From positions 1 to 64,000 of IMG/VR virus record IMGVR_UViG_3300049460_000196: a stretch of DNA of 64,000 nt; one strand, 5' to 3'. The notes under the pieces were generated by a model, which made no database searches, had not been told where the DNA came from, and worked only from the letters and a program-made list of their open reading frames with translations. The DNA comes from a virus. The translations under genes and the position numbers were made by a program. This document shows, piece by piece, positions 9,368 through 58,787 of this stretch. Numbering within the stretch: the first letter of the stretch is position 1; each line of letters opens with the position of its first letter.

Positions 9368-10783
9368 TTAAGCTGCCAGCTTGTAGCGGTCAACCATCAC
9401 GGCTTCCAGCATCACGGACATTGGCGAGAAGTCCTTGGCACCCAGCACAGCTTTCAGGATGGCTGGCGAGAAACCAGATACCAGCGCAACGCCGCTGTCG
9501 TCATAGCGCGTTGGGGCGCTACCATGCGAGTTCAGGTTCCAGAACACGATGTTCGGTGCCTGGTAACCAGCTTCCGCGTACTTGGTGCGGATCATTTCCA
9601 TCGCTTGCACGGAACGGCCCTGGATGCAGTTGTTATCGAACTGCATATCCGACAGGATCAGGATGTTCTCTGGCATGTGCTCAGGTGCAACCTTCTGCGC
9701 CACCGCGATCTTCAGCACTTCCTCGAAAGCCGCCTGGATGTTGGTGTTGTACGCAACCTGCGAACCCATCTGATCCAGTTTCTGGAAGATGTCACCTTGC
9801 AGGTTGTACAGCTTAGGCACGTCAGTGAAGGTCATGAACGTGTCTTTGAACGCACCAGTGTTCTTTTCTGCCAGGTACAGACCCAGCGACATTGCCACAT
9901 TCATGCAGCTAACAGTACCGCTACCACCGGCAGGGCTACCCATCGAACCCGACACGTCAACCATCGGCAGGATAGACGCTTCACCGACGAAGTTTTCCAG
10001 GGCTTCCCACTGGGCAACCATCACCTTGCGAACGGCCTCGTCCATCGAACGACGTTCGTACGCCGTGAACGCACCTTTCAGCACATCGTATGGGTAAACG
10101 GCGCCGCTGTTGATCTTGGCTTCGCCAGTCGTCAGTGCTTCGGCGTACTTAGTGTAAGCGGCTTCAGCATTACGCTTGAACGCTTTCTTGTAGCGAGCAG
10201 CAGCCAGCGATGGCACGTGGCCGAAGTTGATGTTGTCCCAGTCTTTCGCGCACATCTGGGTTTCCACGACTTTCGTCAGGGTCACCAGAGTCTTGCGGTA
10301 GCGCTTAGGCGAGAAGCCCAGGTAGGCACGCAGCTCTTCAGCTACCTTGCCTTTACGTGGCATCCACTTTGCGCACAGGCCGTTACCAGCTTCCAGGCCA
10401 CCTTTGATCAGCTCAAAAGCGTGCTGGCGCAGGATTGGGTGCTTGACGGTCAGCAGGTCATCCCAACGACCGATTTCTGGGATCTTTTGCATGAGCTTCT
10501 GAGCCAGTGCGCTATCCTGGTTTTCCAGGTAACGCAGCACTTGCTTGAACAGCTCACGCTCGCCAGCACCACCGCGAACGTCACGCGCCCACTGCATGAT
10601 GCGCACAGCAACGTCGGCATCTTCCACGAAGGCCGATACAAACGCTGGGATCGGATCTTTACCGCGCATCGCGCCGATATGGAAGAACAGGTCAACACAC
10701 TTGTTCAGCGTGGACTTGTACGCCAGGGCGCCGTTGGTGGTGGTGGTTTCTTGCTCGTTGATTGCTTGTGCGAAAGTAGTCAT
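9368..10783 (-). CDS. TROVE/Ro60-related helical-repeat plus vWA protein (DUF2828-type)
   Basis: N-terminal TTNGA, RDVRGGAGER, GRWDDL, AKWMPR; vWA MIDAS DVSGSM, ILSDMQFD, VFWNL, SGFS. Confidence 0.88.
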   Translation of the reverse strand: MTTFAQAINEQETTTTNGALAYKSTLNKCVDLFFHIGAMRGKDPIPAFVSAFVEDADVAVRIMQWARDVRGGAGERELFKQVLRYLENQDSALAQKLMQKIPEIGRWDDLLTVKHPILRQHAFELIKGGLEAGNGLCAKWMPRKGKVAEELRAYLGFSPKRYRKTLVTLTKVVETQMCAKDWDNINFGHVPSLAAARYKKAFKRNAEAAYTKYAEALTTGEAKINSGAVYPYDVLKGAFTAYERRSMDEAVRKVMVAQWEALENFVGEASILPMVDVSGSMGSPAGGSGTVSCMNVAMSLGLYLAEKNTGAFKDTFMTFTDVPKLYNLQGDIFQKLDQMGSQVAYNTNIQAAFEEVLKIAVAQKVAPEHMPENILILSDMQFDNNCIQGRSVQAMEMIRTKYAEAGYQAPNIVFWNLNSHGSAPTRYDDSGVALVSGFSPAILKAVLGAKDFSPMSVMLEAVMVDRYKLAA

Positions 10784-10806: not shown

Positions 10807-10930
10807 AACTGGATCAGTTGTGCTGAATTATTTGGTAACGTTCAGTATCGTTAGGTCCCGGAGCCACTGGGAGGTTGTAAGTCCCAGTCCTCACGGTAGC
10901 GCGTGTTTTTGAATTGCTGTATCTGATCCA
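10807..10930 (-). ncRNA. ACAGCAA-module RNA in the leader of the TROVE/vWA gene (Y-RNA-like)
   Basis: TGGATCAG-A-TACAGCAA ... CTGATCCA-GTT terminal helix enclosing two hairpins; same architecture as the 39-40 kb elements. Confidence 0.7.
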
Positions 10931-37781: not shown

Positions 37782-38314
37782 AGATTCATGTGGATCATAC
37801 GGTTGGTCAGCGGGGTTGGCACGCCATCGAAGACGATTTTGTGTTTGGAGATGAACACGAAACTGCCGCCATTTTGCACAATGCGCATCAGGCTAGGCCA
37901 CATCGCATAGTTGACTTTGAACGTCGCATCGTGGATGTCGAGGATCAACGTGTGCTCTGGTTGCATGATGGTCACGACTTCATCCAGCTCGTGCAGGAAC
38001 TCGTCATCCGTTTGGAAGCAGTTCAGGACTGGGTTGGCACGACCCAGTATTTCGCGAGTGAACCAAAGGGCGCCGCAGCCAGGTTTGGTCTGAATGGCCA
38101 CGCCGATGAACTGATTGGGCGACATTTGTTTGAACGCCTGCTCCAGGGTTGTGCGAATTTCCGAGCCCTTGTTCATGTTATCGATATTCTCACGGAAGCG
38201 AGTATTGCGGATGCCATACTGTTGGGAGGGATTCACGTCAAACTCCTGAATTTGTAATACCACAATATTACAAGCAAGTGAACGAAAAATCAACAAGAAG
38301 GTGGCCTGAGCCAC
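37778..38314 (-). CDS. hypothetical protein
   Basis: ORF; start uncertain. Confidence 0.55.
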   Translation of the reverse strand: MAQATFLLIFRSLACNIVVLQIQEFDVNPSQQYGIRNTRFRENIDNMNKGSEIRTTLEQAFKQMSPNQFIGVAIQTKPGCGALWFTREILGRANPVLNCFQTDDEFLHELDEVVTIMQPEHTLILDIHDATFKVNYAMWPSLMRIVQNGGSFVFISKHKIVFDGVPTPLTNRMIHMNL

Positions 38315-38321
38315 CTTTTTA

Positions 38322-38741
38322 CTACAGACGGAAGATTTCGTTCAACCAGTCACGTGCTTCCGTGGACTCGTTGATCTTGTATGGGCCATGGATACGAGCG
38401 AAGCAGCCACGGCTATCAACTTTTTTCTGCATGTTGTCCTTGACCCAGTTAACATAGATGCGGTAAAGGTCTTCATCCAGGGCAGTGACGATGCCGATGG
38501 CCATAATGACCACTTTGTCAGAGCCCATGCCGTTCATGCGTTTGATGGCAATGCGGTCGCCTACTTGGATCTTGCTGTAACGATCGATTGATTTTTCATC
38601 CAAGGCACCTTTGATGCCGGGGCGGGATGGTTTGAGGCGGTCATCCATTTCCCAGTAACCACGAGAAATGAACTTTTCGGAGAGATCGAGATTTTGGTCG
38701 TCATTGGAAGACGCACCGACTACGAAGTATTGACGGGCCAT
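38322..38741 (-). CDS. stand-alone PUA/EVE-like domain resembling the N-terminus of McrB-type proteins
   Basis: YFVVGA..F...GYW, IQVGDRIAIK, IMAIGIV, VNW; own promoter and terminator. Confidence 0.5.
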   Translation of the reverse strand: MARQYFVVGASSNDDQNLDLSEKFISRGYWEMDDRLKPSRPGIKGALDEKSIDRYSKIQVGDRIAIKRMNGMGSDKVVIMAIGIVTALDEDLYRIYVNWVKDNMQKKVDSRGCFARIHGPYKINESTEARDWLNEIFRL

Positions 38742-38816: not shown

Positions 38817-39374
38817 TTATGCTTCGCTCAAATACTTGTATGGGACACAGTCAACCAACCACACGCCGTTAGTTGACAAGTAGAAGGTGTGGCCATTTTC
38901 GACCATGCGATGAGCATCGACCTTATACATGAACAGTTCACCATGCCGTGTGCCGACATTGCTGGCAGTTTCCTGATTGGAACTGAGATGCACATAGTGG
39001 CGAGTTTTTGGAATCAAACCCATCTTGTTGATTTCAGATACGAACTTGGTTGCGGTGCCATGATACAGCGTATCTGGAGGTTCCGCGACATCGAACGTGA
39101 GGTCAACTTGTGGTGTTGAGTGGCCTTGATTGCAGCGAATTTGCAGTGTGTGTTGTTCACCGCGCATCGAGTAACGAGTCTTGGTGTCGCTGGCCACAAT
39201 TTGCAGCAGCTCTTCCATGGTAAGCGGGTGTTTATCCGCTGCCATCTTCGACAGCAGGGTATCAACATAGACCCAGCCCTGGATGTCCAGGATAATGTTG
39301 AGTTTTTCAGGAAAATGACGCAGGACGCCACTCATGTACACACTGAATTTTTCTAGTTCTTTTTGACTACGCAT
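38817..39374 (-). CDS. kptA: RNA 2'-phosphotransferase (Tpt1/KptA)
   Basis: S..MS.VLRH.P, D.QGW, D.K.RY, IRCNQGHS, LYHGT, R.YVHLS, RHG, NGVWL. Confidence 0.96.
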   Translation of the reverse strand: MRSQKELEKFSVYMSGVLRHFPEKLNIILDIQGWVYVDTLLSKMAADKHPLTMEELLQIVASDTKTRYSMRGEQHTLQIRCNQGHSTPQVDLTFDVAEPPDTLYHGTATKFVSEINKMGLIPKTRHYVHLSSNQETASNVGTRHGELFMYKVDAHRMVENGHTFYLSTNGVWLVDCVPYKYLSEA

Positions 39375-39387
39375 GATATTTCCATTT

Positions 39388-39489
39388 AACAGAATCGTTG
39401 CCCACTAACCATTGGAGCAGTCAGAGCCGGCTTTCACCAAGCCCCGACAGGAGTCGAACCTGCGATATTTTATTTGCTGTAACGATTCT
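39388..39489 (-). ncRNA. circularly permuted tRNA-like RNA 1 with ACAGCAA module
   Basis: AGAATCGT-TACAGCAA..T-arm GCAGG-TTCGACT-CCTGT, loop-closed acceptor stem, D-like GCTCCAATGGTTAGTGG..ACGATTCT-GTT. Confidence 0.8.
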
Positions 39490-39495
39490 ATGAAT

Positions 39496-39623
39496 AACAG
39501 GATGGTGGTTTTTGCTGCTCTTACGAGCGATGCTGTCCTAACTTAGACTACAGCCCACAGGCCGACGGGATTCGATACCCGCACACACACCTTGAAATAG
39601 CGGTAAATTGCTGTGACCATCCT
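39496..39623 (-). ncRNA. circularly permuted tRNA-like RNA 2 (Glu-like) with ACAGCAA module
   Basis: AGGATGGT-CACAGCAA..ATTTCAA-GGTGT, T-arm GCGGG-TATCGAAT-CCCGT, CGGCC..GGCTG, D-arm GTCT-AAGTTA-GGAC, GCATC..ACCATCCT-GTT. Confidence 0.8.
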
Positions 39624-39673
39624 ACAAACTTTAGACCACATGGTAGCACGTTTTTGCCACCATGCAACCTTTA

Positions 39674-40206: not shown

Positions 40207-40233
40207 GAAAAGGGCCCACCGAAGTGAGCCCTT
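40207..40233 (-). terminator. terminator after the permuted-RNA pair
   Basis: AAGGGCTCAC-TTCG-GTGGGCCCTTTT. Confidence 0.75.
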
Positions 40234-40375
40234 GCGGGTTGTTTTGCCTTTAGGCCAGTGCATTAGACCACTCTGCCATCCTTGGGACGAAGCCTGAGGA
40301 GTGGGATTCGAACCCACGAAGTAAGCCTTGGCGAGGCTCCTTGCCGGCTTGTGTATTGTTTGCTGTACACAACCC
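40234..40375 (-). ncRNA. circularly permuted tRNA-like RNA 3 (Ser-like) with ACAGCAA module
   Basis: GGGTTGTG-TACAGCAA..AA-GCCGG, long variable arm, GTGGG-TTCGAAT-CCCAC, closed acceptor, TGGCAGAGTGGTCTAATGCA, CTGGC-CT..ACAACCC. Confidence 0.85.
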
Positions 40376-40381
40376 AAAATT

Positions 40382-40529
40382 AACAGGATCGCGATGGATT
40401 GAACCATCTTTTAGTCGGGCGCGTCTACCGGTTTCGCCACAGACGAAAGATTTCGCTTTCGCCCGGGAGGGCTCGAACCTCCATGCCTTGCGGCACCTGA
40501 TTTCCGTTTAGTGTTGCTGCATCGATCCT
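40382..40529 (-). ncRNA. circularly permuted tRNA-like RNA 4 (Leu-like) with GCAGCAA module
   Basis: AGGATCGA-TGCAGCAA..AA-TCAGG, TGCC-GCAA-GGCA arm, GGAGG-TTCGAGC-CCTCC, closed acceptor, TGGCGAAACCGGTAGACGCG, CCCGA-CT..CGATCCT-GTT. Confidence 0.85.
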
Positions 40530-40549
40530 AAAACTTGTTACTTGTCTGT

Positions 40550-40752: not shown

Positions 40753-41286
40753 TCAATATGTATCAAATACCAGATGTATTCGTGTTTGATCACTGGCATT
40801 TACTGCGGTGTGCATTTCATTTGTCTTAAAACGATACAAACGCCCCACCGTTACCATACGTTCAATCTTATCGGCATTTACGAAAAAGCATCTGGGATTA
40901 GTATCGATGGGAATATGATACCGGAACTCTTCAACATCACGATGCAATGTATAGCAAGTCTTTGGTTGCAAATACATGAAGCGAATACGCCCAATATTCA
41001 CATTGTCAATTACCGCTTGTGCTTTCACGGCATCAATCACAGTTTCCATATAGGTGCCATGGAAGTGTTGATTCAATATCGCGAAGTCATGTGTGAACCG
41101 ATCAAAGACATTCAAGTCGTAGTTAAACAGCGGGCCTACACTTGAGAACCATCCTGAATCAGTTTGGGAATGTGTTACTGATAATTGCTGCCAGGTTTGG
41201 AATTCTGGCAGCAATGTAATATCTGGAATCGTACTTTTGATTCGTTGAGCAGCAAAAGTATTGGGGGTGGCGGTGATTGATTTCAT
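40753..41286 (-). CDS. aspartyl/asparaginyl beta-hydroxylase-like 2OG-Fe(II) oxygenase
   Basis: GRIRFM.L.P...YTLHRD, RYHIPI.TN, HTAVN.S...RIHLV. Confidence 0.85.
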   Translation of the reverse strand: MKSITATPNTFAAQRIKSTIPDITLLPEFQTWQQLSVTHSQTDSGWFSSVGPLFNYDLNVFDRFTHDFAILNQHFHGTYMETVIDAVKAQAVIDNVNIGRIRFMYLQPKTCYTLHRDVEEFRYHIPIDTNPRCFFVNADKIERMVTVGRLYRFKTNEMHTAVNASDQTRIHLVFDTY

Positions 41287-41618: not shown

Positions 41619-42224
41619 TCAAGTCTTAAATGAAAGATCATGTTCGACCTGTCTTGTCGCCCAAGCTCGTTCACTGCAATGAAAGCATTGACCACATGCT
41701 GGAATTGAGTCATGTTTCGGGCACGACCGAGTCAATTCCAATAATTCAGATAAGCCCAATGTCTCGTACAGGTAAATGGTTGCACGCTTATCGAAGGTAA
41801 CAAATGGAGTGGCATAACCACGATACTTATTATCCATCGCAGTTAAGGGACGAGATGGAGCTGGCCCCGTGTAATCCCAGTCAAACGGATTCTGGGTTAC
41901 ACCTGTGTACAGCCAATCCATAGTTTCCATCGTTTGATAGATGTCACGACGCAGCTTATTGTCGATCAACACGAACTCATGTTCACGAGACTTCAACTCT
42001 ACGTTGAATTGATTTTCTAACCAACCCAACGTATTGCTGATACTTGCATTCTTGAGACCATTACGGAAAACTGTATAGATCTTATCAGGCACCAACCCAT
42101 TTGCCAACAGTAGATACATGAGGATCACACTGTCAGCGCCACCGGAATACGAAATACCCGTTTGTCCTTCATGGATGGGTATTATCACATTCCGGTATGG
42201 AGTTGGATAAATGACTTCGCGCAT
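41619..42224 (-). CDS. QueC-like PP-loop ATPase
   Basis: SYSGGADS, PF...DK, TRSC, CGQCFHCSER. Confidence 0.8.
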   Translation of the reverse strand: MREVIYPTPYRNVIIPIHEGQTGISYSGGADSVILMYLLLANGLVPDKIYTVFRNGLKNASISNTLGWLENQFNVELKSREHEFVLIDNKLRRDIYQTMETMDWLYTGVTQNPFDWDYTGPAPSRPLTAMDNKYRGYATPFVTFDKRATIYLYETLGLSELLELTRSCPKHDSIPACGQCFHCSERAWATRQVEHDLSFKT

Positions 42225-46387: not shown

Positions 46388-47575
46388 GTACCACTGAGAT
46401 TACATGGTCCTCGTTGACGCTTCGAACATTATTAGCCAGGATTGCGTCCCAACCTTCTTTCGATATCCACTAGAGCCCCTTTCGGGTAATCTAGTACGCC
46501 AACATCATCGCCGTTTTAAGTCAGGCAGTAGACTTGACACAGGGTGCTATTCTACGACTTTCCATCCGTTGACATTCGACTGCCATTAGAGCTTGCGGGC
46601 CCTACGAACTTCTTTTCATAAACCAACTAGGCCTTGCGAGCTTCGCTGAACTTGATTAACTTTCGTCTCAAGTATTAGATGATTTTCACACCCTGCCGAG
46701 GTAGACTTTGCATTTTGTATAAGTAAACGGTTTGATCGTTCGCTCTTTCTCCAATGAAAGTGCCATTTCTGGCGTGCAACTCACTGCGACGTGCTACCTC
46801 AGCTGCTCCAAAGTCTTTTGGACTCCAGAATACAACACGCCACGTATCTTTCGCCTCGCGGGCTACCGGATCGTCTTTCTCGACTAATGTCCACACCCTT
46901 GCGGATAGTCCACCAACCGATAAAACTGCATCATACCTCTTGGGTGCGACCCCTCGAAACATAACACTACCTTTCCCCGTACAAGATGGCAAGTTGGATT
47001 TGTGATGAGACTCGGCTCCCGCCATGTTCTCCCTCAACTGATGTTCCCTAACGAGCAAGCCCGCTAGGCATCTAAGCCAAGGTTCTTTCCATCACTCTTG
47101 CGTCCCAATTATCTCCAGGATAACCTGAAGTGCTTCCTTTCGGAAGCCGGGTCGGCTTGCATAACAGAACCACTTGCATGGCGCGGCTGCGTGAGCTTGA
47201 CCGCTTTCCCCGGGTTGCCCCGGCTCTTCCTTCCAATATACGGCAAGCCGTATACCGTGGAGCTATGCCCCCAAAACTTGTTTTACTCATAAATTCTACA
47301 AATACCCATTAAAGGAACGGCTGATACTAATGGAGCGACCATTATAAGGTTGCGAACCTCGCAGTGAACAAGTCACCGGCATATCAACTATGCGTTAGTA
47401 TCGTCAGGCAGCCGCACTGGCTGTTACTCCCTATTGTCCACCCGCACACGGAACAATCAACTACCGCGGTCAGGTCGCGTGCCATCAGGCAGTAGGTAAT
47501 TGACGGCTAGGATTTACACCTAGTACGTTCCATTAATGAATACTCAGAAAACACATGAGTAAAACAAATTGCTTA
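46388..47575 (-). ncRNA. large structured ncRNA, GOLLD-like
   Basis: ~1.2 kb with no credible ORF, many GNRA-capped hairpins, long-range helices 47278-90/47556-68, 3' GTAATCTCAG, next to a tRNA, own promoter. Confidence 0.65.
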
Positions 47576-54476: not shown

Positions 54477-54539
54477 CTGCTACTCCGTGTTCGTTTATCT
54501 TGTTCCTATTATAGGCGTAGATGAACAAACAATCAAGTA

Positions 54540-54752
54540 TTAGTCACGTTTGTTTGCCAGTTCGTTCAACTGTTTGCTGAGGTCGGCGTCGGTTTCGGCG
54601 GTGATCACGCCCAGCTTAACCATGTTGTTCATGGTACCACGATACACTTCAAACTCGCGGTTATCGAACGACTCAACCATCACGTGCTCGCGACCAGTGT
54701 CGCTGTCGAAGGTGTCGTAGTTGTGTTTGATCTGCGCGTTGATGATATACAT
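54540..54752 (-). CDS. hypothetical protein
   Basis: AGGAG RBS and promoter. Confidence 0.6.
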   Translation of the reverse strand: MYIINAQIKHNYDTFDSDTGREHVMVESFDNREFEVYRGTMNNMVKLGVITAETDADLSKQLNELANKRD

Positions 54753-54817
54753 GGTCGCTCCTGCATTTGTGTAGAATCACATTATAGACGCAGATGAACA
54801 GAAAATCAAGTAATATT

Positions 54818-54901
54818 TGGTGGACCAGAGCGGAATTGAACCGCCACGACGTCGCGAACGTCTTTCCCAGTGCGGAGGACTTGTACTCACCTGAGTAGCC
54901 C
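54818..54901 (-). ncRNA. degenerate tRNA-like RNA
   Basis: GGCGG-TTCAATT-CCGCT, ACCA end, variable-arm hairpin; D and anticodon arms irregular. Confidence 0.5.
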
Positions 54902-54926
54902 AGCGAAGCACCAATACATGATGCTT

Positions 54927-55003
54927 TGGTGGACTATGGGGACTCGAACCCCCTCTCCCTGGCCCGTAATGATCAGCCTCGTGGGGCTTGTCCCACAATC
55001 TCC
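54927..55003 (-). ncRNA. degenerate tRNA-like RNA (UAC-like loop)
   Basis: GGGG-TTCGAGT-CCCC, TAGTCC-ACCA; non-standard D region. Confidence 0.5.
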
Positions 55004-55095
55004 GCCATTAGATGTAGCGGTGCTGAATCACGCTTCTGAAGCTACTCGCTTGAAGCCGATCATTACGAGCGACTGTTGCCAGTCACCCAGCTGGT

Positions 55096-58703: not shown

Positions 58704-58787
58704 TGGTCTCGGTGACAGGAGTCGAACCTGCAAAAGCCTGGGGTCTAGACCCAGTAGGTGTACCTGATTTCCATGAGCCACACCGAG
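58704..58787 (-). tRNA. atypical tRNA-Leu(UAG): enlarged D region, short variable arm, C33
   Basis: CTCGGTG/CACCGAG-A-CCA, CTGGG-TC-TAG-AC-CCCAG. Confidence 0.75.

What the first reader, a model, noticed from the sequence alone, without database searches (positions are those of the whole stretch)
38817..39670. Two permuted tRNA-like RNAs co-transcribed directly upstream of Tpt1/KptA
A promoter-like TTGCAT..TG-C-TACCAT (~39640-39668) precedes RNA 2, RNA 1 and, 13 nt later, the kptA start codon. RNA 2 is Glu-like: D-arm GTCT-AAGTTA-GGAC, with a potential ATTTCAA (UUC) loop kept on its 3' half. Tpt1 removes 2'-phosphates left at RNA ligation junctions (established for fungal tRNA splicing). This linkage suggests that the RNAs are ligated or repaired, or that they belong to an RNA-repair regulon like bacterial rsr-yrl-rtc loci (inference).
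Basis: partly seen in the sequence, partly recalled or inferred. Interest (0 to 1): 0.8.

Follow-up and report, generated by a model that had tools for sequence, protein, structure and literature searches.

The report
Phage Y-like tRNA mimics before KptA
Two small RNA genes just upstream of this large phage's RNA 2'-phosphotransferase gene are re-ordered tRNA look-alikes on a conserved "handle", probably partner RNAs of a Ro60-like phage protein and not broken tRNAs awaiting ligation, and their link to the enzyme was not seen in any other phage I could check.

Summary
RNA 2 (39624-39494, minus strand) and RNA 1 (39490-39386) each consist of a closing stem, ACAGCAA, a T-arm, a closed acceptor-like hairpin and a D-arm. 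This is the layout of the tRNA-like domain of bacterial YrlA. A covariance model built only from other copies finds both (E 1e-5 and 5e-5).

They belong to a "CAGCAA-handle" RNA family that this scan has already noted in at least 41 other genomes. I found it neither in Rfam nor in the papers I searched.

The handle tracks a DUF2828/DUF7788 protein, encoded here at 9368-10783. Its predicted fold matches Ro60. There were 56 model hits in 1.23 Mb around 80 such genes, and none in 1.17 Mb around 94 other Tpt1/KptA genes.

The kptA gene is intact, with its catalytic Arg-His-Arg-Arg tetrad present. It starts 11-15 nt after RNA 1. A sigma-70-like promoter precedes RNA 2 and no terminator intervenes, so co-transcription is likely. 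This recalls Salmonella rsr-yrlBA-rtcBA.

However, 20 other DUF2828 phage records lack Tpt1, and the 113-kb fragment holds no ligase, kinase, 2H or splicing-endonuclease gene. The ligation reading is not supported, and functional coupling to KptA remains open.

The parts
39640..39667 (-). Sigma-70-like promoter candidate: TTGCAT, 16 nt, TG-c-TACCAT. It starts 7 nt after the stop codon of the upstream ORF.
   Evidence: Read directly from the sequence. Similar elements lie upstream of other handle RNAs of this genome: TTGCAT-N17-TATATT, TTGCAA-N17-TATAGT, TTGACA-N17-TCTAAT and TTGATG-N17-TATACT. The generic scan did not call it.
39494..39624 (-). RNA 2. In order: handle stem, CACAGCAA, a weak hairpin with an AUUUCAA loop, a T-arm with an 8-nt loop, a 5-bp acceptor-like hairpin, UA, a Glu-like D-arm, a GNRA hairpin, the 3' handle strand and GUUAU.
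   Evidence: R1 hit of 42.4 bits, E 1.2e-5. MFE fold. Weak Rfam YrlA match over model positions 23-86, 15.7 bits.
39386..39490 (-). RNA 1. In order: handle stem, ACAGCAA, an A-rich linker, a canonical T-arm, a 7-bp acceptor-like stem capped by a GAAA hairpin, a D-like arm, the 3' handle strand and GUUAA.
   Evidence: R1 hit of 39.3 bits, E 4.8e-5. Fold. Its T-arm is identical over 18 nt to the phage tRNA at 58704-58787.
38817..39374 (-). kptA/tpt1, an RNA 2'-phosphotransferase of 185 aa.
   Evidence: PF01885 E 2e-42. PHROG 5470 E 2e-61. Aligns end to end with chain 7KW8 (E 1e-40); query R19, H20, R67 and R125 fall on chain positions 16, 17, 64 and 119, which are the numbers of the Runella Tpt1 catalytic tetrad (PMC6333775).
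38769..38790 (-). Weak terminator-like hairpin (6 bp with one bulge) followed by five U, downstream of kptA.
   Evidence: Sequence. The fold is only modestly stable, so read-through into the next ORF is possible.
38322..38741 (-). 139-aa ORF, possibly in the same transcript. The Atlas model resembles the N-terminal reader domains of McrB-type ATPases.
   Evidence: No Pfam or PHROG hit. Atlas structural neighbours with TM 0.74-0.83; this is a lead only.
38298..38317 (-). Strong intrinsic terminator, and the first strong one downstream of the RNA 2 promoter.
   Evidence: Terminator scan: 8 pairs followed by a T-rich tail.
40231..40530 (-). A neighbouring second tandem pair of handle RNAs with Leu-type and Ser-type permuted tRNA bodies. 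It has its own promoter-like site and its own terminator.
   Evidence: R1 hits of 48.3 and 43.1 bits. Terminator hairpin of -17.3 kcal/mol, z -3.5. Promoter-like site.
10810..10930 (-). A handle RNA that ends 26 nt before the start codon of the Ro60-like gene.
   Evidence: Descriptor scan and fold. The same arrangement occurs within 400 nt upstream in 32 of 76 other DUF2828 loci.
9368..10783 (-). DUF2828/DUF7788 protein with a Ro60-like predicted fold, the presumed protein partner of the handle RNAs.
   Evidence: Pfam DUF7788 E 6e-43 and DUF2828 E 2.5e-28. AF2 model with pLDDT 80.7. The top 13 PDB matches are all Ro60/TROVE, E 7.5e-10 to 9e-6.

Best explanation
RNA 1 and RNA 2 are two members of a phage family of Y-RNA-like small RNAs. 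Each has a conserved handle: a closing stem that begins with a U-G pair, single-stranded (A)CAGCAA after the 5' strand, and GUUA after the 3' strand. The handle holds out a circularly re-ordered tRNA body (T-arm, closed acceptor-like hairpin, D-arm), as in bacterial YrlA. By inference, the handle is the docking site for the phage's Ro60-like DUF2828/DUF7788 protein, encoded 28 kb away.

In this phage the two RNAs are most likely made from a sigma-70-type promoter as one precursor that runs on into kptA. That gives an arrangement like yrlB-yrlA-rtcB in Salmonella. The RNAs are not split or permuted tRNA genes that need ligation.

Whether KptA works with the RNA-protein particle, for example in handling damaged tRNAs during infection, or is only a neighbour in the phage's RNA-gene island, is not settled.

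Shown here: the RNA architecture, family membership, covariation, the co-occurrence of the handle with DUF2828 genes, and an intact Tpt1.
Inferred: protein binding, co-transcription, and any joint function.
For: Architecture and membership:
- R1 was built without these two RNAs and hits both over their full length.
- The family alignment of 56 RNAs is 96.2% paired. Its covariation score is 0.62, against 0.17 for shuffles (0 of 500 reach it) and 0.03-0.16 for slid partners. All four helices show compensatory changes.

Link to the Ro60-like protein:
- 56 R1 hits, all on the gene's strand, in 1.23 Mb around 80 DUF2828 genes.
- No R1 hit in 1.17 Mb around 94 other Tpt1 genes.
- A handle lies within 400 nt upstream of the gene in 32 of 76 loci.
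- The predicted fold is Ro60-like.

YrlA likeness:
- Rfam YrlA positions 23-86 match RNA 2 weakly.
- The 105.8-kb copy matches at 34.6 bits, E 7e-4.

Operon:
- A promoter-like site of the same style as those before other handle RNAs.
- A 3-nt gap between the two RNAs and 11-15 nt to the ATG.
- No hairpin plus U-tract between them.
- By contrast, the neighbouring RNA pair ends in a strong terminator.

KptA is intact.

Precedents: the rsr-yrlBA-rtcBA operon (PMC7790460), and Thermus phage phiLo Ro60 with two Y-like RNAs upstream of its gene (PMC12135203).
Against: - There are no expression, processing or binding data.
- The Pfam TROVE model does not hit this genome, and a profile of the DUF2828 protein finds no Ro60 by sequence. 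The Ro60 link therefore rests on a predicted fold.
- The handle lacks the GNCGAA motif of YrlA (PMC4201824).
- The promoter is weak by consensus. A second promoter-like site inside RNA 1 (39494-39467) could drive kptA on its own.
- Tpt1 is absent from 80 DUF2828 loci and from 20 whole DUF2828 phage records, three of them complete. KptA is therefore not a regular part of the system.
- In those same 20 records RtcB is absent, and an Rnl2-type ligase is present in only 2, each about 13-14 kb from the DUF2828 gene.
Confidence: 0.6

Rival explanations
1. The adjacency means nothing functionally. kptA is an independently acquired accessory gene that landed between RNA genes in a tRNA-rich region. 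Any co-transcription is incidental.
For: - No handle RNA lies near 94 other Tpt1 genes.
- No Tpt1 occurs in 80 DUF2828 loci or in 20 whole DUF2828 phage records.
- In cultured phages Tpt1 sits among unrelated hypothetical genes.
- The 113 kb held carries 55 tRNA genes and at least a dozen handle RNAs, so many genes have RNA neighbours.
- A possible internal promoter lies at 39494-39467.
Against: Among the protein genes checked, only the Ro60-like gene and kptA have a handle RNA ending within 30 nt of the start codon with no terminator between. The neighbouring RNA pair is insulated by its own terminator. KptA is an RNA enzyme known to act on tRNA (PMC9095486).
Confidence: 0.25
2. The RNAs act in cis as a leader that controls kptA. 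The Ro60-like protein bound to RNA 1's handle, or cleavage at the end of RNA 1, would set access to the ribosome-binding site 6-11 nt downstream.
For: The handle ends 11-15 nt before the ATG, and a GGA lies 6 nt upstream of it. The Ro60-like gene itself has a handle RNA in its leader here and in many phages.
Against: Most family members stand free among tRNA genes or end in terminators. Two full tRNA-like bodies are more than a protein-binding operator needs. The arrangement has not been seen at another kptA.
Confidence: 0.1
3. They are permuted or split tRNA genes. Cleavage in the acceptor loop and joining of the handle ends would yield working tRNAs, and Tpt1 would remove the junction 2'-phosphate.
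For: - The order of the arms is that of a permuted tRNA.
- RNA 2 has a Glu-like D-stem and a UUC-containing 7-nt loop.
- ARAGORN finds no tRNA-Glu and no tRNA-Tyr among the 55 tRNAs of this fragment.
- M. smegmatis YrlA can be cut by RNase P and receive CCA (PMC4201824).
Against: - Joining the ends would give a long stem with a CAGCAA bulge, not an anticodon arm.
- RNA 1 has no anticodon-like loop.
- RNA 2's T-loop and D-loop are abnormal.
- The fragment holds no ligase, kinase, 2H esterase, CCA enzyme or splicing endonuclease.
- The same handle carries non-tRNA cargo.
- The architecture is common in phages without Tpt1.
Confidence: 0.04

Closest known systems
YrlA/YrlB Y RNAs with Rsr (Ro60) in the Salmonella rsr-yrlBA-rtcBA operon (Rfam RF02553; PMC4201824, PMC7790460)
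   Same: A terminal stem closes a domain ordered T-arm, closed acceptor-like stem-loop, D-arm. Two such RNAs are encoded in tandem directly upstream of an RNA-repair enzyme gene. A Ro60-type protein is encoded in the same genome.
   Different: The handle is a stem plus CAGCAA with a GUUA tail, not the GNCGAA motif. The Rfam score is far below the family threshold. The protein is DUF2828/DUF7788, not a Pfam TROVE match, and lies 28 kb away. The enzyme is KptA, not RtcB/RtcA.
Thermus phage phiLo Ro60 with Yrl1 and Yrl2 (PMC12135203; PDB 9KOP, 9L5Y)
   Same: A phage-encoded Ro60-fold protein with two Y-like RNA genes in tandem. PDB 9KOP is the best structural match of this phage's DUF2828 model.
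   Different: The phiLo RNAs carry the CGAA motif and lie upstream of the Ro60 gene. No tRNA-like body and no KptA link are reported there.
Class I RNAs of dictyostelid amoebae (Rfam RF01414; PMC7919456)
   Same: A short covarying terminal stem. An unpaired motif after the 5' strand whose last conserved letters are C-A-A and whose conserved positions are T, C, C, A, A. A 3' end that reads CUGU. Variable cargo.
   Different: Those are eukaryotic RNAs of 42-65 nt with no tRNA body. The Rfam scans returned no RF01414 match in this genome (E up to 10 at 38.5-40.2 kb; E up to 1 at 64-113 kb).
Permuted tRNA genes of Cyanidioschyzon merolae and split tRNAs of Nanoarchaeum (from my own knowledge, not checked here)
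   Same: The 3' half of the tRNA precedes the 5' half. The ends are held together by a helix.
   Different: Those retain a full anticodon arm with a bulge-helix-bulge splice site and depend on a splicing endonuclease and a ligase. None of these was found here.
Tpt1/KptA RNA 2'-phosphotransferases (PF01885; PMC6333775, PMC9095486, PMC9503650)
   Same: A full-length match with an intact catalytic tetrad. Jumbo-phage KptA has been proposed to take part in tRNA repair.
   Different: No partner 2H esterase or ligase is in view. A direct fusion of its transcription unit to Y-like RNAs was not mentioned in the papers I read.

Membership tests
CAGCAA-handle phage RNAs with a permuted tRNA body (family defined in this scan; not in Rfam) | A full-length match to a covariance model built from other members | tested here: met
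   R1: RNA 2 at 42.4 bits, E 1.2e-5; RNA 1 at 39.3 bits, E 4.8e-5. No hit in the 1.17 Mb control.
CAGCAA-handle phage RNAs with a permuted tRNA body (family defined in this scan; not in Rfam) | A closing stem that starts with U-G then a covarying pair, (A)CAGCAA 0-4 nt after the 5' strand, and GUUA after the 3' strand | tested here: met
   Both RNAs meet it.
CAGCAA-handle phage RNAs with a permuted tRNA body (family defined in this scan; not in Rfam) | A DUF2828/DUF7788 gene in the same genome | tested here: met
   ORF 9368-10783, minus strand, with its own handle RNA as leader.
YrlA (Rfam RF02553) | A score at or above Rfam's gathering threshold of 69 bits | tested here: not met
   RNA 2 scores 15.7 bits, E 6.7. 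RNA 1 gives no match.
YrlA (Rfam RF02553) | Topology: closing stem, T-arm, acceptor-like stem-loop, D-arm | tested here: met
YrlA (Rfam RF02553) | A GNCGAA(N0-1)G motif near the 5' end (PMC4201824) | tested here: not met
   ACAGCAA occupies that position.
YrlA (Rfam RF02553) | Encoded within about 4 kb of a TROVE Ro60 gene on the same strand | tested here: not met
   PF05731 is absent from the 113 kb. The Ro60-fold DUF2828 gene is on the same strand but 28 kb away.
Y RNA in the functional sense | Bound by a Ro60-type protein | not testable with these tools
   Only genomic co-occurrence and a predicted fold are available.
Class I RNA (Rfam RF01414) | A match to the Rfam model | tested here: not met
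   No match at E up to 10 in 38.5-40.2 kb, nor at E up to 1 in 64-113 kb.
Permuted or split tRNA gene | A complete anticodon arm restored by joining the ends, plus cleavage and ligation enzymes | tested here: not met
   Sequence and folds. No RtcB, Rnl1, Rnl2, 2H or EndA in the fragment. The fragment is only 27% of the genome by CheckV's estimate.
Tpt1/KptA (PF01885) | [quoted passage not shown] | tested here: met
   145.6 bits against a cut-off of 26. R19, H20, R67 and R125 align with chain positions 16, 17, 64 and 119 of 7KW8, the numbers of the Runella Tpt1 tetrad (PMC6333775).
Tpt1/KptA (PF01885) | NAD-dependent removal of an RNA 2'-phosphate | not testable with these tools
   This needs an enzyme assay.

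The most novel reading that the evidence does not exclude
The Y-like RNAs and KptA form one working unit. In one version, the Ro60-like particle uses its tRNA-shaped RNAs to bring 2'-phosphate-bearing tRNAs to KptA; these would be tRNAs cut and partly healed, or marked by a host kinase. This would resemble the way a Y RNA tethers Ro60 to PNPase. In another version, KptA modifies the processed RNAs themselves, for example by ADP-ribose capping of their 5'-phosphate ends, an activity shown for some Tpt1 enzymes (PMC6182162). Either version would give bacterial-type Tpt1 a natural substrate and give this RNA family a biochemical role.
Probability: 0.1. Interest if true: 0.85.

Novelty: new variant of a known kind. 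Interest (0 to 1): 0.6.

Why it matters
The natural substrates of bacterial and phage Tpt1/KptA are largely unknown, and the job of bacterial Y RNAs with tRNA-like domains is also open. This locus places two tRNA-shaped, Ro60-type partner RNAs and a KptA gene in what looks like a single transcription unit. That offers a concrete and cheap experiment on both questions.

More broadly, the RNAs belong to a widespread phage RNA family that I found neither in Rfam nor in the papers I searched. Its covariation is strong, and it is tightly linked to a very abundant protein (more than 8000 homologues). The family appears to be a second, uncatalogued branch of the Ro60/Y-RNA system.

Tried and rejected
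- **Synteny in close relatives.** This check was therefore not possible.
- **Phage database.** DNA of the locus has no match at blastn sensitivity.
- **tRNA with a 65-nt insert.** Rfam paired RNA 2's D-arm with RNA 1's T-arm at 15.7 bits. I rejected this because the acceptor strands do not pair.
- **Whole-region fold.** The fold of the 271 nt is not unusually stable (z -1.3). The support comes from comparison with other copies, not from folding energy.
- **RNA-repair island.** None of the eight repair-related families searched is present in the fragment. Twenty other DUF2828 phages showed no RtcB and only 2 Rnl2-type ligases.
- **Sequence-level link of DUF2828 to Ro60.** None was found. Only the predicted fold links them.
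- **Class I RNA membership.** The Rfam scans returned no RF01414 match.

Full report
**Setting.** The window is the first 64 kb of a 113,103-nt IMG/VR virus record that CheckV rates 27% complete. It is therefore a piece of a very large phage. Nearly all genes lie on the minus strand. The record holds 55 tRNA genes by ARAGORN and a GOLLD RNA.

**The observation.** Reading the minus strand gives the following order:
- TTGCAT (39667-39662), 16 nt, then TG-c-TACCAT (39648-39640).
- RNA 2 at 39624-39494.
- A 3-nt gap.
- RNA 1 at 39490-39386.
- The ATG of a 185-aa ORF at 39374.

The ORF is a Tpt1/KptA enzyme: PF01885 E 2e-42 and PHROG 5470 E 2e-61. It aligns end to end with chain 7KW8. [quoted passage not shown] No minus-strand ORF of 40 aa or more lies between 39375 and 39673.

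**Anatomy of the RNAs.** Both RNAs fold with a 9-11 bp closing stem.
- RNA 2 contains CACAGCAA, a weak hairpin with an AUUUCAA loop, a T-arm with an 8-nt loop, a 5-bp acceptor-like hairpin, UA, the D-arm GUCU/AAGUUA/GGAC, a GNRA hairpin, and the 3' strand followed by GUUAU.
- RNA 1 contains ACAGCAA, an A-rich linker, a canonical T-arm (identical over 18 nt to the phage tRNA at 58704-58787), a 7-bp acceptor-like stem capped by a GAAA hairpin, and a D-like arm.

[quoted passage not shown] Rfam's YrlA model aligns its positions 23-86 to RNA 2, but only at 15.7 bits.

**A family, not a pair.**
- A descriptor scan found twelve minus-strand copies of the same handle in this genome. The handle is 5' U-N-G-R-A-U... 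pairing with ...A-U-Y-C-N'-G, then UUA, with (A)CAGCAA 0-4 nt after the 5' strand. Cargo ranges from about 35 to 290 nt. Notes from first-stage readers of this genome pointed me to this.
- One copy (10930-10810) ends 26 nt before the start of a 471-aa protein with DUF7788 and DUF2828 domains.
- This protein has more than 8000 homologues.
- Its AlphaFold model (pLDDT 80.7) has Ro60/TROVE structures as its 13 best PDB matches, E 7.5e-10 to 9e-6. Neither Pfam TROVE nor a sequence profile search of the PDB sees the relationship.
- In 80 IMG/VR loci with this protein, the descriptor found 111 handles, nearly all on the gene's strand. In 32 of 76 loci one ends within 400 nt upstream of the gene.

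**An independent test of membership.** I aligned 12 handle RNAs with T-loop cargo from other phages plus the copy at 105.8 kb.
- RNAalifold recovered the handle, T, acceptor-like and D helices.
- The resulting model R1 finds RNA 2 (42.4 bits, E 1.2e-5), RNA 1 (39.3 bits, E 4.8e-5) and the neighbouring pair at 40530-40231.
- Across the DUF2828 loci it finds 56 RNAs.
- Their alignment is 96.2% paired, against 70.4% in shuffles.
- Its covariation score is 0.62, against 0.17 for shuffles (0 of 500 reach it) and 0.03-0.16 for slid partners.
- All four helices show double changes.
- Because this alignment was fitted to the model, these counts lean somewhat towards the model's structure.

**Is KptA part of the system?**
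- R1 finds nothing at E up to 0.1 in 1.17 Mb around 94 other Tpt1/KptA genes of phages and bacteria. The descriptor found nothing convincing there either.
- The 80 DUF2828 loci hold no Tpt1 (tblastn).
- Twenty whole DUF2828 phage records, three of them complete, hold no PF01885 and no RtcB. Only two hold an Rnl2-type ligase, about 13-14 kb from the DUF2828 gene.
- In cultured phages Tpt1 lies among unrelated genes.
- This genome fragment has no RtcB, Rnl1, Rnl2-type ligase, AAA_33 kinase, 2H esterase, CCA enzyme or splicing endonuclease.

**Transcription (inferred).** Similar -35/-10 pairs precede other handle RNAs of this phage, which makes the weak site before RNA 2 credible. The neighbouring RNA pair ends in a strong terminator (-17.3 kcal/mol, z -3.5). 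Nothing comparable lies between RNA 1 and kptA. Only a weak hairpin plus U5 follows kptA. The first strong terminator is at 38317-38298, after a 139-aa ORF. A promoter-like site inside RNA 1 leaves room for independent kptA transcription.

**Reading.** The RNAs are Y-like tRNA mimics of the CAGCAA-handle family. The likeness to rsr-yrlBA-rtcBA (PMC7790460) and to phage phiLo Ro60 with Yrl1 and Yrl2 (PMC12135203) is one of design, not of family membership. The Rfam score, the GNCGAA motif and TROVE adjacency were all tested and not met.

The handle also resembles dictyostelid Class I RNAs in its stem, its motif ending in CAA and its CUGU end. Neither Rfam scan returned a Class I match.

The ligation idea fails on anatomy and on gene content. 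KptA acts on tRNA in other settings: it removes the 2'-phosphate of Up47 (PMC9095486) and has a proposed repair role in jumbo phages (PMC9503650, PMC7824862). Joint action is therefore plausible, but nothing here shows it.

This scan has already noted the RNA family in at least 41 other genomes. None of those notes mentions Tpt1.

Noticed in passing
window 46391-46843 (-): A GOLLD RNA scoring above Rfam's threshold (203 bits against 150), 7 kb from the locus and next to a tRNA gene.
   Followed up: no
window 38322-38741 (-): A 139-aa ORF downstream of kptA with no Pfam or PHROG hit. Its Atlas model resembles the N-terminal reader domains of McrB-type restriction ATPases (TM 0.74-0.83). It may share the kptA transcript.
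   Followed up: partly
   Followed up: no
window 54538-55017 (-): ARAGORN calls a permuted tmRNA with an implausible tag peptide. This is probably a false call triggered by tRNA-like pieces in the region.
   Followed up: no
G000 34-112 kb: ARAGORN finds 55 tRNA genes on the minus strand covering 18 amino acids. It finds no tRNA-Glu and no tRNA-Tyr in this fragment. RNA 2 has a Glu-like D-stem and a UUC loop.
   Followed up: partly
window 39513-39508 (-): RNA 2 carries a second CAGCAA in its 3' linker, 5 nt before the 3' handle strand.
   Followed up: no
window 40420-40392 (-): The Leu-type handle RNA at 40530-40380 has, after its D-arm, a 5-bp hairpin with the 7-nt loop UUCAAUC (CAA is a Leu anticodon). 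Some members may therefore display an isotype-matched anticodon-like loop as well as the tRNA elbow.
   Followed up: no
window 41619-42224 (-) and 40753-41286 (-): A short QueC-like PP-loop protein (E 5e-6) and an Asp/Asn hydroxylase-like protein (E 5e-11) lie just upstream of the RNA pairs.
   Followed up: no
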